Assembly (NCBI GenBank): GCA_048887225.1
Contig: JBHLJY010000004.1
Location: forward strand, 1 to 64,000
Origin: Candidatus Hodarchaeota archaeon
Lineage (GTDB): Archaea > Asgardarchaeota > Lokiarchaeia > Sigyniarchaeales > SOKP01
Direction: 5' to 3'
Length of the DNA stretch: 64,000 bases
A model generated the notes under the pieces. That model searched no databases. It saw nothing but the letters and a program-made list of their open reading frames with translations, and was not told where the DNA came from. Made by a program: the position numbers and the translations under genes. Shown piece after piece: positions 6,558 to 44,706 of the stretch (position 1 is its first letter; each line of letters starts with the position of its first letter).

Positions 6558-7661
6558 TTAAGTAGACTTTAGCTTATTTTTTCTTTCCTCAATTTTTAAA
6601 GCTAATTTAAAACTTATAGCAGTTAGTAATATTTTCAAAGAAGCCTTTGGCCCCAATTTTTTATAAACGACTCTAAGCAATAGAGTTAATAAAAAGATTG
6701 TAGTAAATACAGCAATCCAGATAGTTATAACATTTAATTGACGATAAAATAGAAAAAAAAGGGGATTATGAGCCAAAAAGATTGTAAAAGAATAGTAAGA
6801 GTAATAATAGAAAAACCTATAACTTTTTTCAGTTTTAATAACTTCGAATTCTTCAATACCGATTAAAACTGAAAGTAAAGTAAATATTATTCCCAATGAA
6901 TAAACCATCGATGAAAATGTTGCGTGTTTTAAAAATGTAGGAAAAAGAAATATAATTCCGAAAGAAGTTAGAATTATCCCTATTATTAATAAAGAAAATA
7001 GATGAGTTTTAAAGACTCTTCTCCTTTCATTTTTGTTATCTATTCTATTAATATCATAGATAATATCCCCAGCTACGGTTCCTATAAGAAATATAGTGAA
7101 AAAAGACTGAATCGTGTATAATTCAACTGGATTATATAAAATATGGAATAATATTCCATAAAAATTAATCTGACCTTTATAAGATGATAGAAATGCTAAA
7201 ATAAATTCATTAGAAACCAGTAAAATAATTCCAATGATAATGCGAAAAATTTTTGAAGTTTTCAATAAGGGCCACGCTAATATAAGACAAAAACCAATTG
7301 TTTGGAGCACAAACCATGCCCAAATATAAGTAAGATCGTTAATCGCTATAGCTATTGCTGTATTATACATAAAAGCAATAAATAATAAAAGCAATGCTCT
7401 AAATATATACACATTTCTTACCATCTTCATATTAAATTCGTTTGAACCTTCCGCTTTTTCGAGTCTATTTTTGTAAGACAATTGCGCACTTAATCCTGAG
7501 ATAAAAAGGAATCCAGATGCACCTATAGGTGCAAAAATTGATTCCAAAAATAAATATAGCCAGTAATCCTCGGGTGTTAACCACCAATTGACTATATGAC
7601 CGTAAACCATAATAATCATGCACAGGCCACGAATTATATCAATACTTTTATATCTTCTCAT
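6558..7661 (-). CDS. DUF1624 / heparan-alpha-glucosaminide N-acetyltransferase-like membrane acyltransferase (paralogue 3)
   Basis: RYKSIDIIRG...GH...FLFISGLS; multi-TM. Confidence 0.8.
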   Translation of the reverse strand: MRRYKSIDIIRGLCMIIMVYGHIVNWWLTPEDYWLYLFLESIFAPIGASGFLFISGLSAQLSYKNRLEKAEGSNEFNMKMVRNVYIFRALLLLFIAFMYNTAIAIAINDLTYIWAWFVLQTIGFCLILAWPLLKTSKIFRIIIGIILLVSNEFILAFLSSYKGQINFYGILFHILYNPVELYTIQSFFTIFLIGTVAGDIIYDINRIDNKNERRRVFKTHLFSLLIIGIILTSFGIIFLFPTFLKHATFSSMVYSLGIIFTLLSVLIGIEEFEVIKTEKSYRFFYYYSYYSFTIFLAHNPLFFLFYRQLNVITIWIAVFTTIFLLTLLLRVVYKKLGPKASLKILLTAISFKLALKIEERKNKLKST

Positions 7662-7701
7662 TGTTTCGTCATTATATTTTAGTTATCATTTTTCTATCAA
7701 T

Positions 7702-8863
7702 TTATTGTTCCTCGCTTTTCCGAAATTCTTCTTGTAATGTTGCGATATCTATATGTTCAAATTTTAGCGCTAAAAATATTGCCATTTTTCCCATTTGGAC
7801 TTTTAATGAAAATTTAGATCTCCACCGCTTATGAATTGATCTTAAAGCTAATCCTATAAGGATAGCTGTAATAATAAAAGCTATCCAAAAATAGAAAAGA
7901 TTTAATTGGCGGTAAAAAATGAAGAAAATTAAATTATGTCCTAAATAAACTGTAAGAGAATAATATGAGAAGTAATAAGAAAATTTATAACTTTTTTTTG
8001 TATCGAAGTAACCATATACTTCAAAAGTTAATAAAATCGAAACTGCTATTATGATTGCAGATATCGAAAATGGGACCCATGCAAATGGATAATCCATAAA
8101 AAATAACTCCGCTATAAATATTGATGCCGATATAATTAAGACTAATCCAATTATCAAAGAAGGGATTACAATTTTATTTCTTAATGCTAATCTTCTTTCA
8201 GTAATATTCTCTATTTGAAATACCTCAAAAAGGAGGTCTCCGAAAACAGTACCTAATATATAAAAAGCATAAGAGCTTAAAACAGGATCTAGCAATAAAT
8301 TATTATATAAAAAATAAAACAATATGCCATAAATGTTTAATTGGCCTTCAAATGGCCATAAAATTGTGATAATAATTTGATTTATAATTATAATAATGAA
8401 TGCATAAATTATTCTAAAGAGTTTTGAAGTTCTAAAGAATGGATATGACATTAACATTGAAAAAGCAAGAGCAAATAAGATAAACCAAGCCCATAGCCAG
8501 GTAGGATCTAAAGCCACTATAGCAACAACTGCATTATAAATTACAGCAATAATAAGTAAAATTAAGGACCGAAAATAATATTCCTTTTTCATAATACTAG
8601 GACTGTAATTATCTAATTCCTTAGCTTTAGCGCTCGCATTCCTATACCATATAATTAAACTTATACCAGAGATCAAAATAAAAGCAGGAGCAAAAATACG
8701 ATCTATAAATAACCTTGATATGTCTCTGAACCATAAATCTTCTTCCCTAAGCCACCAGTCTCTAGCGCTAAGAGAAATGTCTCGTAGCGTCTCTAGCGTG
8801 TACCCATATCATGCCCAAAATGATAAGCCCGCGCGCTATATCTAATGTTCTAATCCTCTCCAT
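7702..8863 (-). CDS. DUF1624/HGSNAT-like acyltransferase (paralogue 2), interrupted by a 31-nt insert; exons 8863-8791 and 8759-7702, 376 aa after removal
   Basis: ATG at 8863 reads MERIRTLDIARGLIILGMIWVHAR; removing 8790-8760 continues D-WWLREEDLWFRDISRLFIDRIFAPAFILISG, collinear with both neighbouring paralogues. Confidence 0.8.
8760..8790 (-). other. Putative BHB-type mRNA intron (31 nt)
   Basis: CUAG/CUAG central helix, AGA and AGA bulges, 9-of-10-bp intron stem with CAUU loop; canonical cut sites give the exact frame-restoring length. Confidence 0.7.
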
Positions 8864-8988
8864 AATTAACAAAAGATTTTAATTTAATTGCTCTATTCTC
8901 ATAATATTTTTTTTTACTTTTTAGATGAGATTAATTATTAAAATTATTCTATCTAAACCTTTATAAGCGTTTTTAATTTACTTATTTT

Positions 8989-10080
8989 TTAAACTTTTTT
9001 TTCCTCAATTTTCTTTGCTATTCCGCTTGCTAATCTCCCTATTTGAGTTTTTAAAGAAGCTTTATAACCCCATCTTTTATAAATAAATCTAAAAATTAAA
9101 CCAATAATGATAAATGTTACTGCGATAAAAATCCAGATTTCAAACATATTCAATTGACGATAAAATAAAAAGTAAAGTGGATTATGTGTTAAATAGATAA
9201 CAAGGGAATAATAAGAATAATAAAAAAGAAATTTATAGCTTTTTTCAACCTTGTAAAAAACAAATTCTTCAAAAAATACAAAAATTGACAATATGGTCAA
9301 TTGTATTCCTAACGAATATATTAACCAGATAAAACTACGATTTCTTGGAATTGCTGGAAAATCATACAAAATTCCACAAATAATCAGAACTGGTCCTAGT
9401 ATTATTAAAGGACGCAAAAATTTCTTCTTTAATTTTAATTTAATATCACTATGATTCTCTCTAAGGTAAATATCGTGTAAAATTTCTCCTAAAATTGTTC
9501 CAAATAAGAAAAAAGGGAACATTGGTAAAATTGGATCAAGTCTTGGAATATTATATAAAATATGATATAATACACCATATAGATTAGGTTCTCCTTTAAA
9601 TAGCGACAAGAAATCTAATAATAATAGATGCAAAATCCAAAAAAGTGCTCCGAGGAAAATTCTAAATAATTTGGGAGTTTCTAACAGTGGCCATGCAATA
9701 AATAAAGAAATCGCGATTGTGAGTAATATAAACCAAGTCCATATCATTTCAGGATCGCTAATTGCGATTGCAATAAACAAATTAAATAATATAGCAACAA
9801 TAAATATGAAAAAAGCTCTCAGCATATATTCGTTTCTTACGTTATTTTTAGTATAGCCTTCAGTAATTTCTATTTTAGCTAATCTTGTTCTATATGAGAT
9901 TGCTGTACTAATCCCCGCAACAAGTAAAAAAGCAGCAGCTCCGATAGGATCAAGTATCTCAAATGTTAAAAGATACACCCATCTATCCTTACCTCTTATC
10001 CACCAAGCTAAAAGATGTCCTATCACCATCCAGGTCATTGATAGACCCCTTAAAATATCAATACTCTTGATCCGTTTCAT
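8989..10080 (-). CDS. DUF1624/HGSNAT-like membrane acyltransferase (paralogue 1)
   Basis: RIKSIDILRG...GH...FLLVAGIS; multi-TM. Confidence 0.8.
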   Translation of the reverse strand: MKRIKSIDILRGLSMTWMVIGHLLAWWIRGKDRWVYLLTFEILDPIGAAAFLLVAGISTAISYRTRLAKIEITEGYTKNNVRNEYMLRAFFIFIVAILFNLFIAIAISDPEMIWTWFILLTIAISLFIAWPLLETPKLFRIFLGALFWILHLLLLDFLSLFKGEPNLYGVLYHILYNIPRLDPILPMFPFFLFGTILGEILHDIYLRENHSDIKLKLKKKFLRPLIILGPVLIICGILYDFPAIPRNRSFIWLIYSLGIQLTILSIFVFFEEFVFYKVEKSYKFLFYYSYYSLVIYLTHNPLYFLFYRQLNMFEIWIFIAVTFIIIGLIFRFIYKRWGYKASLKTQIGRLASGIAKKIEEKKV

Positions 10081-44553: not shown

Positions 44554-44706
44554 GGCCCTCGACGGTCGGATTTTGGAATCGTCTCGTTTTCAAACGATAA
44601 GTGGTCTTCGACGCTGGGCTTCAAACCCAGTTATCCTGCGGAGGGATAGGAGTTCGATAATTGCAAGGATTTTCCTTACTTTTGGAAGTCTCCTCGAGGG
44701 CCGCCA
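44554..44706 (+). tRNA. selC: tRNA-Sec(UCA), 9/4 fold, encoded CCA, two introns (about 44577-44604 in D loop; 44659-44688 in T loop)
   Basis: 9-bp acceptor GGCCCTCGA/TCGAGGGCC, G73, anticodon arm GCTGGG-CTTCAAA-CCCAGT, long variable arm, 4-bp T stem GGAG/CTCC. Confidence 0.93.

What the first reader, a model, noticed from the sequence alone, without database searches (positions are those of the whole stretch)
8758..8798. Candidate BHB (tRNA-type) intron inside a protein-coding mRNA
Seen, on the minus strand: ...CACG-CUAG-AGA-[CGCUACGAGA-CAUU-UCUCUUAGCG]-CUAG-AGA-CUGG.... This is a strict bulge-helix-bulge: a 4-bp CUAG/CUAG helix, two 3-nt AGA bulges, a 9-of-10-bp intron stem and a G-C exon closing pair. 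Cutting after the second base of each bulge removes 8790-8760 (31 nt) and gives H-A-R-D-W-W-L, collinear with HIVNWWL and HLLAWWI in the neighbouring paralogues. Unspliced, the frame hits UAG at codon 32. The length matches the 28-32-nt noncanonical tRNA introns in this window. Known: archaeal EndA/RtcB splice BHB introns in tRNA and rRNA, and mRNA cases are rare (the classic one is crenarchaeal cbf5). Inference: a spliced mRNA in an Asgard archaeon, possibly making protein output depend on tRNA-splicing activity (conceptually like Ire1/HAC1-type splicing). Alternative: a recent inactivating hairpin insertion or assembly artefact, since it is flanked by a 10-nt direct repeat (CGCUAGAGAC).
Basis: partly seen in the sequence, partly recalled or inferred. 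Interest (0 to 1): 0.92.

Follow-up and report, generated by a model that had tools for sequence, protein, structure and literature searches.

The report
tRNA-type mini-intron in acyltransferase mRNA
A 31-base hairpin insert that breaks a membrane acyltransferase gene of an Asgard (Promethearchaeota) archaeon has the shape cut by the tRNA-splicing enzyme and is conserved, so it is very probably spliced out of the mRNA, which papers I could search show for only one archaeal coding gene (cbf5); no RNA data exist to prove it.

Summary
On the minus strand, 8798-8758 reads CGCUAGAGAC, a 21-nt centre, then CGCUAGAGAC. It folds as a bulge-helix-bulge (BHB): 4-bp helix CUAG/CUAG, two AGA bulges each 3' of its helix strand, a 9/10-bp intron stem, and one G-C outer pair, so it is the relaxed form, not the strict one.

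Removing 8790-8760 gives a 376-aa HGSNAT/Acyl_transf_3 protein that aligns without gaps to both tandem paralogues.

- It is not an artefact. Four distinct alleles (94.5-96.5% identical), plus contigs from three other studies, all carry the insert.
- The only changes in the 41-nt motif are two hairpin-loop bases.
- The spliced frame is under purifying selection among insert-bearing alleles (36 syn : 38 nonsyn, pN/pS 0.27, p=7e-8).
- Syntenic orthologues in three sister species lack the insert, so it is a young gain.
- The same genome has two EndA paralogues, 30-nt tRNA introns of the same build, and like inserts in its only detected rtcB, in uL11 and in an FGGY kinase.

Best reading: an EndA/RtcB-spliced mRNA intron (about 0.8). 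No RNA run was available. A frameshift, a truncated protein or a decaying gene are not fully excluded.

This scan has flagged similar mini-introns in many other Asgard genomes.

The parts
8791..8863 (-). Exon 1: ATG 8863-8861 through the G of AG|A. It encodes MERIRTLDIARGLIILGMIWVHAR plus the first base of the Asp codon, and includes the conserved family His22.
8760..8790 (-). 31-nt intron, defined by cuts after the second base of each AGA bulge. Any symmetric cut within the repeat gives the same product.
7702..8759 (-). Exon 2: 352 codons plus the stop (7704-7702). It matches Acyl_transf_3.
8793..8796 (-). Central helix H, 5' strand (CUAG), in exon 1.
   Evidence: scan hit
8762..8765 (-). Central helix H, 3' strand (CUAG), at the 3' end of the intron.
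8790..8792 (-). 5' bulge AGA, with the predicted cut between 8791 and 8790.
   Evidence: cut rule from PMC2738675
8759..8761 (-). 3' bulge AGA, with the predicted cut between 8760 and 8759.
8766..8789 (-). Intron hairpin h'. The arms 8789-8780 and 8775-8766 form 9 of 10 pairs with a C8784.U8771 mismatch. The loop is 8779-8776 (CAUU). The only variable positions among alleles are 8779 and 8778.
8758..8797 (-). Outer closing pair G8797-C8758 (helix h, 1 bp). It is followed outward by two mismatches, then C8800-G8755, A8801-U8754 and U8802.G8753.
8768..8770 (-). UAG that ends the unspliced reading frame (codon 32 from ATG 8863).
8674..8676 (-). Internal TTG (codon 53 of the spliced protein). Gene callers start the 324-aa truncated ORF here.

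Best explanation
The 31 nt at 8790-8760(-) are a bulge-helix-bulge intron in the pre-mRNA of a membrane acyltransferase (HGSNAT_cat/Acyl_transf_3 family). Shown: the transcript can fold so that exon CUAG pairs with intron CUAG, leaving two AGA bulges beside a 10-position intron hairpin. Inferred: the (alpha-beta)2-type splicing endonuclease EndA that removes this organism's many 30-nt tRNA introns cuts in both bulges. RtcB then joins the exons to give ...CACGCUAGAG|ACUGGUGG... and probably circularises the intron. Only the spliced mRNA encodes the full 376-aa enzyme; unspliced mRNA ends after 31 codons. The intron is a young gain, present in all sampled alleles of this species-level lineage and absent from sister species. 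It is kept intact because losing the fold would lose the gene. Its arms are one direct and one inverted near-copy of the flanking exon 9-mer CGCUAGAGA. From this I infer, with low confidence, that it arose in place by local duplication/inversion and survived because the product happened to be a BHB.
For: - Geometry and polarity are right, the frame is restored, and the product aligns without gaps to the paralogues.
- Syntenic orthologues in G006, G005 and G009 (71-78% aa) are uninterrupted, and the alignment gap is exactly the 31 nt.
- The insert is present without indels in contigs from three other studies. It is also present in alleles fetched from ENA, JGI and two Logan runs; counting my own there are four distinct alleles, 94.5-96.5% identical.
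- Within the 41-nt motif the only changes are loop positions 1 and 2 (CAUU/UAUU/UUUU). That is loop 2/4 against the rest 0/37, hypergeometric p=0.007. None of the 27 non-loop intron positions changed, where about 4.2 changes are expected at the synonymous rate.
- Among insert-bearing alleles the spliced frame shows 36 syn: 38 nonsyn, pN/pS 0.27, p=7e-8, with no stops or indels. The upstream spacer does carry indels.
- Machinery: two EndA catalytic-domain paralogues. Asgard EndA is reported as (alpha-beta)2 with the broad-specificity L1 loop (PMC5829648).
- Same genome: the only detected rtcB is split by a 29-nt BHB insert whose removal restores GGVGYDINCG. uL11 is split by a 28-nt BHB whose removal restores GPPIGPAVGPTG. 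An FGGY kinase is split at Pfam profile position 78|79.
- The rtcB intron is shared with the closest relative G002, and both of its substitutions keep the pairs.
- A tRNA-SeC in this window carries two 30-nt introns of the same build.
- The BHB fold energy of -10.0 kcal/mol equals that of the rtcB intron, -9.9.
Against: - No RNA data: no listed run is on record as RNA, so cleavage and ligation are inferred.
- The BHB is not the predicted minimum-energy fold. An alternative that keeps the hairpin but pairs CGCUAG with CUGGUG scores -18.5 against -10.0 kcal/mol.
- The outer helix is a single base pair.
- Selection on the first 52 codons alone (upstream of the internal TTG) is not significant: 3 syn: 3 nonsyn, p about 0.1.
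- The exon-2 frame stays open through the insert, so a +1 ribosomal frameshift could also give a long product.
- One allele (L069) loses homology after about codon 300 and runs into a PolX gene. If this is real and not a chimeric contig, the gene is dispensable in that strain.
Confidence: 0.8

Rival explanations
1. The gene is expressed only as an N-terminally truncated 324-aa protein from the internal TTG at 8676. The insert is then a tolerated scar in what has become a leader, and the hairpin is kept for some other reason such as transcript stability or attenuation.
For: Gene callers in five data sets call exactly this 324-aa (or a 296-aa) ORF. Most of the purifying-selection signal lies downstream of the TTG, and codons 1-52 alone give p about 0.1.
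Against: The truncated product would lack the first transmembrane segment and the conserved RGL...H motif that matches the start of the HGSNAT_cat and Acyl_transf_3 profiles in the paralogues. Exon 1 and the first 28 codons of exon 2 carry no stop or indel in four alleles, and their three amino-acid changes are conservative (R5K, I9L, A50T). This reading does not explain why variation in the insert is confined to the hairpin loop, or why the fold is an exact BHB at the frame-restoring place.
Confidence: 0.07
2. Recoding during translation instead of RNA splicing. Either a +1 ribosomal frameshift occurs near UCU-UAG-C, giving a product with about 10 extra residues (...HARDATRHFS-SARDWWL...), or the ribosome bypasses 31 nt between the matched AGA/GAC codons of the direct repeat, as in T4 gene 60 or mitochondrial byps.
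For: The exon-2 frame is open from about 8808 through the insert (368-codon open frame). The 10-nt direct repeat offers matched take-off and landing codons, and a hairpin sits between them.
Against: UCU-UAG is not a known slippery context, and no stop follows the putative take-off codon (sequence). Ten extra residues three positions after the conserved His would break the gap-free alignment with all paralogues and orthologues. The rtcB insert in the same genome has no matched take-off and landing codons but does have a BHB, so one mechanism, splicing, explains all cases. The two allelic changes would be amino-acid changes (His/Tyr/Phe) if the insert were translated.
Confidence: 0.05
3. The insert inactivated the gene, which is now a young pseudogene, one of three tandem paralogues and therefore redundant. 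The BHB-like fold is a by-product of a palindromic duplication.
For: The gene has two neighbouring paralogues. The insert is made of copies of the flanking exon 9-mer. One allele appears to be truncated at the 3' end. The insert is absent from sister species.
Against: Alleles that all carry the insert have diverged by 3.5-5.5%, yet show pN/pS 0.27 (p=7e-8) and no stop or indel in about 1.1 kb, while the adjacent spacer has indels. The non-loop positions of the insert are invariant.
Confidence: 0.06
4. Assembly or sequencing artefact.
For: The window comes from a metagenome-assembled genome, and hairpins with flanking repeats can be assembly errors.
Against: The same 31 nt occur in contigs of three other studies and in ENA, JGI and Logan assemblies, on four distinct allelic backgrounds.
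Confidence: 0.01

Closest known systems
BHB intron in the cbf5 (pseudouridine synthase) pre-mRNA of Crenarchaeota (Watanabe 2002; Yoshinari 2006; Yokobori 2009, PMC2738675)
   Same: Both are short introns (cbf5: 16-44 bp) inside a coding region, next to a catalytic residue. Both have a relaxed BHB motif with cuts between the second and third bulge residues. Both occur in hosts with a hetero-oligomeric, broad-specificity EndA, and both show a patchy pattern of gain and loss among relatives.
   Different: The gene and the phylum differ (Promethearchaeota/Asgard). This intron is far younger, at species level. It is one of several such introns in the same genome rather than a lone case. Splicing of cbf5 is shown by cDNA and in vitro cleavage; here it is inferred.
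Non-canonical tRNA introns of Asgard archaea (Valentin-Alvarado 2024, PMC11291895; bioRxiv 10.64898/2026.10.13.758758)
   Same: The size is the same (about 30 nt) and so is the build: one bulge base, a hairpin, the 4-nt helix strand and two bulge bases. The presumed enzymes are the same, and both show many recent independent gains.
   Different: The host RNA is an mRNA, so exon sequence is constrained by coding rather than by the tRNA fold, and splicing must compete with translation. Neither paper mentions introns in protein genes.
BHB element in the 5' UTR of Haloferax volcanii HVO_1309 mRNA (Schwarz 2020, PMC7714728)
   Same: Both are mRNAs processed at a BHB by the splicing endonuclease.
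   Different: That element lies in the untranslated leader, not in the coding sequence, so it does not restore a reading frame.
Ire1/RtcB unconventional splicing of HAC1/XBP1 mRNA in eukaryotes (my own knowledge)
   Same: Both are spliceosome-independent mRNA splicing by an endonuclease plus a tRNA ligase, with a frame change that decides which protein is made.
   Different: Ire1 cuts in stem-loop loops, not in a BHB, and is stress-regulated. No regulation is shown here. This is an analogy only.
Translational bypass elements (T4 gene 60; mitochondrial byps of Magnusiomyces) (my own knowledge)
   Same: Both are short hairpin-forming inserts flanked by matching codons in an otherwise intact ORF.
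   Different: There is no stop codon at the take-off site, and the BHB geometry has no role in bypassing. Other inserts of this genome lack matched codons.

Membership tests
Archaeal BHB intron (EndA substrate) | [quoted passage not shown] | tested here: met
   CUAG(8796-8793)/CUAG(8765-8762) with AGA bulges at 8792-8790 and 8761-8759. My geometry scanner recovers it at L=31.
Archaeal BHB intron (EndA substrate) | Flanking helices h (exon side) and h' (intron side): both for the strict hBHBh' form, at least one for the relaxed form | tested here: met
   h' has 9 of 10 pairs. h is a single G-C pair followed by two mismatches. It is therefore met only as the relaxed HBh' form, not the strict one.
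Archaeal BHB intron (EndA substrate) | Cutting between bulge residues 2 and 3 yields a functional joined product | tested here: met
   The joined product is a 376-aa ORF that aligns without gaps to two paralogues and three orthologues. The cut rule is from PMC2738675.
Archaeal BHB intron (EndA substrate) | Host encodes a broad-specificity EndA and an RtcB ligase | tested here: met
   There are two tRNA_int_endo paralogues, at C1:186989-187213 and C3:61052-61300. One rtcB is present and is itself interrupted by a BHB insert. Subunit roles and the L1 loop were not examined here; PMC5829648 reports (alpha-beta)2 with L1 for Asgard.
Archaeal BHB intron (EndA substrate) | Structure conserved in evolution, with changes confined to unpaired positions or compensated | tested here: met
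   Across four alleles the only changes are at loop positions 8779 and 8778. No stem position varies, so there is no covariation to count.
Archaeal BHB intron (EndA substrate) | Cleavage by EndA and a ligated exon junction or circular intron seen in RNA | not testable with these tools
   No run on record as RNA holds the stretch.
Programmed translational bypass (gene 60 / byp type) | Matched take-off and landing codons, with a stop or hungry codon right after take-off | tested here: not met
   Matched codons exist only because of the repeat, and the codon after AGA/GAC is a sense codon. The UAG lies 7 codons further on.
Programmed +1 frameshift | A known slippery P-site codon before a slow or stop codon, and a tolerated read-through peptide | tested here: inconclusive
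   A UCU-UAG-C context exists and the +1 frame is open. The site is not a known shift motif, and the 10-aa insertion has no counterpart in any homologue.

The most novel reading that the evidence does not exclude
This is one member of a population of recently gained BHB mini-introns (28-36 nt) in protein-coding genes of a Promethearchaeota (Asgard) genus. They include the only detected copies of rtcB (the ligase that would have to join its own mRNA) and of uL11. If so, routine pre-mRNA splicing by the tRNA-splicing machinery operates in close prokaryotic relatives of eukaryotes. This particular intron is young enough to show its origin: it is built from a direct and an inverted near-copy of the adjacent exon 9-mer. 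That suggests introns are born in place by local duplication/inversion and survive only when the product folds as a BHB.
Probability: 0.6. Interest if true: 0.9.

Novelty: new member of a known kind. Interest (0 to 1): 0.75.

Why it matters
In the papers I could search, endonuclease-spliced introns inside archaeal coding sequences are documented only for crenarchaeal cbf5. The one other mRNA case is a 5' UTR element in Haloferax. The two papers on intron-rich Asgard tRNA genes do not mention protein genes.

If this intron is spliced, three things follow.

- Standard gene calling truncates or splits such genes. This one is called as a 324-aa fragment in public data.
- Expression of this protein depends on EndA and RtcB.
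- Because the intron is species-young, with intron-less orthologues and several alleles in hand, it is a good case for asking how archaeal introns arise.

It also gives a concrete substrate for testing mRNA splicing in Asgard archaea.

Tried and rejected
- **RNA evidence.** No RNA holder was listed by the look-up of sequencing runs. Only DNA contigs could be laid, so minor insert-free DNA variants could not be assessed either.
- **Genome-wide census.** I scanned both strands for BHB geometry (intron length 14-100) and asked whether removal merges two open frames. There was no excess over a reversed-sequence control. The noise comes from hairpins at gene-gene junctions, and the control also contains complement images of real introns. 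This scan therefore cannot count introns. An excess appears only in the extreme tail: at -12 kcal/mol or better, 12 real against 5 control.
- **tRNA detection.** Default ARAGORN and Rfam at gathering thresholds find no tRNA in the window, because the introns hide them. This is not evidence of absence.
- **Donor search.** blastn-short of the cassette against the genome found only chance 11-13-mers.
- **Closest relative.** G002 (82% complete) does not contain this locus, so I could not test whether it shares the intron.
- **'Rewritten exon' idea.** The repeat CGCTAGAGAC differs at 9 of 10 positions from the orthologues' TTTACGTACA. These three codons are the variable ones of the family (IVN, LLA, LRT, ARD) and synonymous sites look saturated, so this is not clearly more than divergence. 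I dropped it as evidence.
- **N-terminal selection test.** In one search I first set the boundary at codon 76. The internal TTG is codon 53, and with the right boundary the test is not significant.

Full report
**1. What is there**

The minus strand at 8800-8751 reads CACG CUAG AGA CGCUACGAGA CAUU UCUCUUAGCG CUAG AGA CUGG. The gene starts at ATG 8863 and runs for 31 codons to UAG 8770-8768. A second open frame, shifted by +1, runs from about 8808 to the stop at 7702.

Deleting 8790-8760 (31 nt) joins the two frames into a 376-aa protein, MERIRTLDIARGLIILGMIWVHARDWWLREEDLWF... This protein aligns without a single gap near the junction to the two flanking tandem paralogues at 6558-7661 and 8989-10080. 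The paralogues match Pfam HGSNAT_cat and Acyl_transf_3 from their first residues. Exon 2 alone still matches Acyl_transf_3.

**2. The fold**

- The first CUAG (8796-8793) pairs with the second (8765-8762).
- Each is followed on its 3' side by an unpaired AGA.
- Between them, 8789-8780 pairs with 8775-8766 in 9 of 10 positions (C.U mismatch) around the loop CAUU.
- G8797 pairs with C8758.

This is the true BHB polarity, the same as in pre-tRNA, and not its mirror image. The core is two-fold symmetric, with G-CUAG-AGA-C on both strands. That symmetry accounts for nine of the ten bases of the 'direct repeat'.

The outer helix is only one pair before two mismatches, so the motif is the relaxed HBh' form. 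The cut rule, between bulge residues 2 and 3, is stated for cbf5 introns in PMC2738675. Because of the repeat, any symmetric cut gives the same product.

The BHB fold scores -10.0 kcal/mol. The predicted minimum-energy fold (-18.5) keeps the hairpin but pairs CGCUAG with CUGGUG instead. For the rtcB intron of the same genome the BHB scores -9.9.

**3. Not an artefact, and young**

Syntenic orthologues in three species of the same genus (G006, G005, G009; 71-78% aa identity) are uninterrupted (...WVHLRTWWL...). In the DNA alignment the gap is exactly the 31 nt.

Contigs of three other sediment studies carry a 96-97% identical gene with no indel across the insert. Public gene calls of the truncated ORF led to contigs from ENA, JGI and two Logan runs. 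Together with the window these give four distinct alleles, 94.5-96.5% identical pairwise, and all four carry the insert.

**4. Constraint**

In the 41-nt motif the only differences among alleles are at loop positions 8779 and 8778 (CAUU, UAUU, UUUU).
- Two changes in 4 loop positions against none in 37 others gives a hypergeometric p of 0.007.
- At the synonymous rate seen in this gene (0.155 changes per site) the 27 non-loop intron bases should show about 4 changes. They show none.

In the spliced reading frame the alleles differ by 36 synonymous and 38 non-synonymous changes. With 233 synonymous and 895 non-synonymous sites, pN/pS is 0.27 (binomial p=7e-8). There is no stop or indel in the homologous part, while the spacer just upstream has a 32-nt deletion and a 1-nt insertion.

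All these alleles carry the insert, so this selection acted after the insert arose. A deletion between the repeats could restore the gene at the DNA level. Such a deletion cannot be reversed, so it cannot explain long-term maintenance of an insert-bearing but silent allele.

The weak point is the first 52 codons, upstream of an internal TTG. They show only 3 synonymous and 3 non-synonymous changes (p about 0.1), so expression of a truncated protein is not formally excluded.

**5. Context in the same genome, checked by me**

The genome is 3.27 Mb, 30% GC and 98% complete.
- It has two EndA catalytic-domain paralogues, consistent with the (alpha-beta)2 enzyme with the L1 loop reported for Asgard archaea (PMC5829648).
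- The only rtcB detected is split at Pfam position 47 by 29 nt (C13:33458-33486). These fold as GCG-UUGG-AUA-[9-bp stem]-CCAA-AAA-CG, and removing them restores GGVGYDINCG. The closest relative G002 shares this intron, five other relatives lack it, and its two substitutions keep the pairs.
- uL11 is broken by a 28-nt insert with 7-bp, 4-bp and 8-bp helices, and removing it restores GPPIGPAVGPTG.
- An FGGY kinase is split by 33 nt exactly between Pfam FGGY_N positions 78 and 79.
- An AMP-binding (ACS) gene and a DeoC-type aldolase end their domain matches at the last residue before such inserts.
- In the window, removing two 30-nt inserts reveals a tRNA-SeC.

The organism therefore has to remove inserts of this kind from RNAs it presumably cannot do without. 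The acyltransferase insert has the same size and build.

**6. Origin (inference, low confidence)**

The 5' arm CGCUACGAGA is the preceding exon 9-mer CGCUAGAGA with one extra C. The 3' arm is the reverse complement of the same 9-mer with one extra base at the same place, which makes the C.U mismatch. The chance of such a match is of order 1e-5 to 1e-4 from base composition.

No similar sequence exists elsewhere in the genome. A 10-nt exon echo also occurs in one ACS insert (p=0.002) and a 7-nt echo in the rtcB intron (p=0.06), but not in five other inserts.

This fits birth in place by local duplication/inversion. The palindromic CUAG automatically supplies the central helix, and the splicing machinery rescues the gene.

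**7. Rivals**

- A +1 frameshift at UCU-UAG-C, or a 31-nt ribosomal bypass, would also give a long protein. These rivals lack their defining signals, would add ten residues where no homologue has any, and do not explain the loop-only variation or the rtcB case.
- A truncated product from TTG 8676 would lack the conserved N-terminal motif.
- A pseudogene is contradicted by the selection data.
- One allele (L069) diverges after about codon 300 into a PolX gene. This may be a chimeric contig or a real truncation.

**8. What is known**

The papers I could search report coding-region BHB introns only for crenarchaeal cbf5, plus a 5' UTR case in Haloferax. The papers on Asgard tRNA introns do not mention protein genes.

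Earlier notes of this scan list similar mini-introns in this genome and in many other Asgard genomes. I used them as leads and re-tested those cited above.

**9. Verdict**

The insert is most likely an EndA/RtcB-spliced mRNA intron (0.8). It is a new member of the cbf5 kind, in a new phylum and gene, and unusually young. RNA-level proof is missing.

Noticed in passing
G000 contig C13:33458-33486 (+), locus L032/L037: The only rtcB (tRNA ligase) gene detected in this genome is interrupted by a 29-nt BHB insert carrying an in-frame TAG, and removing it restores GGVGYDINCG. The insert is shared with the closest relative G002 and absent from five other relatives. If it is spliced, the ligase must join its own mRNA.
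   Followed up: yes
G000 contig C4:65567-65594 (-), 1.6 kb beyond the window end (L034): The uL11 gene is broken by a 28-nt insert with a textbook BHB (7-bp outer, 4-bp central and 8-bp inner helices). Removing it restores GPPIGPAVGPTG.
   Followed up: yes
G000 C5:191631-191663 (-) (L074); C1:321212-321243 (+) (L075); C4:215764-215799 (+) (L076): An FGGY kinase is split by 33 nt exactly at Pfam FGGY_N position 78|79. A DeoC/LsrF-type aldolase and an acyl-CoA dehydrogenase carry inserts of 32 and 36 nt at BHB-scan hits.
   Followed up: partly
G000 C2:89800-89935 (+) (L073): An acetyl-CoA-synthetase-like gene has two inserts about 75 nt apart. The second (30 nt) restores DTYWQTETGG. For the first, the best strict BHB predicts a 28-nt removal that does not restore the frame, whereas a 30-nt removal restores GEPINPEAW. 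It may therefore use an unusual or relaxed motif.
   Followed up: partly
window 44571-44600 and 44659-44688 (+): A tRNA-SeC gene is hidden by two 30-nt non-canonical introns. ARAGORN finds it only after both are removed.
   Followed up: yes
window 8870-8906 (spacer upstream of ATG 8863): Two of the four alleles (L069, L070), and the contigs of three other studies, lack about 32-37 nt directly upstream of the start codon. The promoter and leader of this gene therefore differ between strains.
   Followed up: no
L069:3244-4270: In one ENA contig the acyltransferase gene loses homology after ...SLTVYLGHN (about codon 300) and abuts a PolX-like gene (DNA_pol_B_thumb + PHP) on the other strand. This is either a real deletion of the gene's end plus its neighbours or a chimeric contig.
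   Followed up: partly
window 6558-10080 (-); L003 (G006): There are three tandem HGSNAT/Acyl_transf_3 paralogues here. The sister species G006 has only two at the syntenic place, upstream of the TlyA-like methyltransferase gene.
   Followed up: partly
introns listed above: Some mini-introns contain direct 'echoes' of the adjacent exon: 8-10 nt in the acyltransferase and ACS introns, and 7 nt in rtcB. Others do not. This may be a trace of origin by local duplication.
   Followed up: partly
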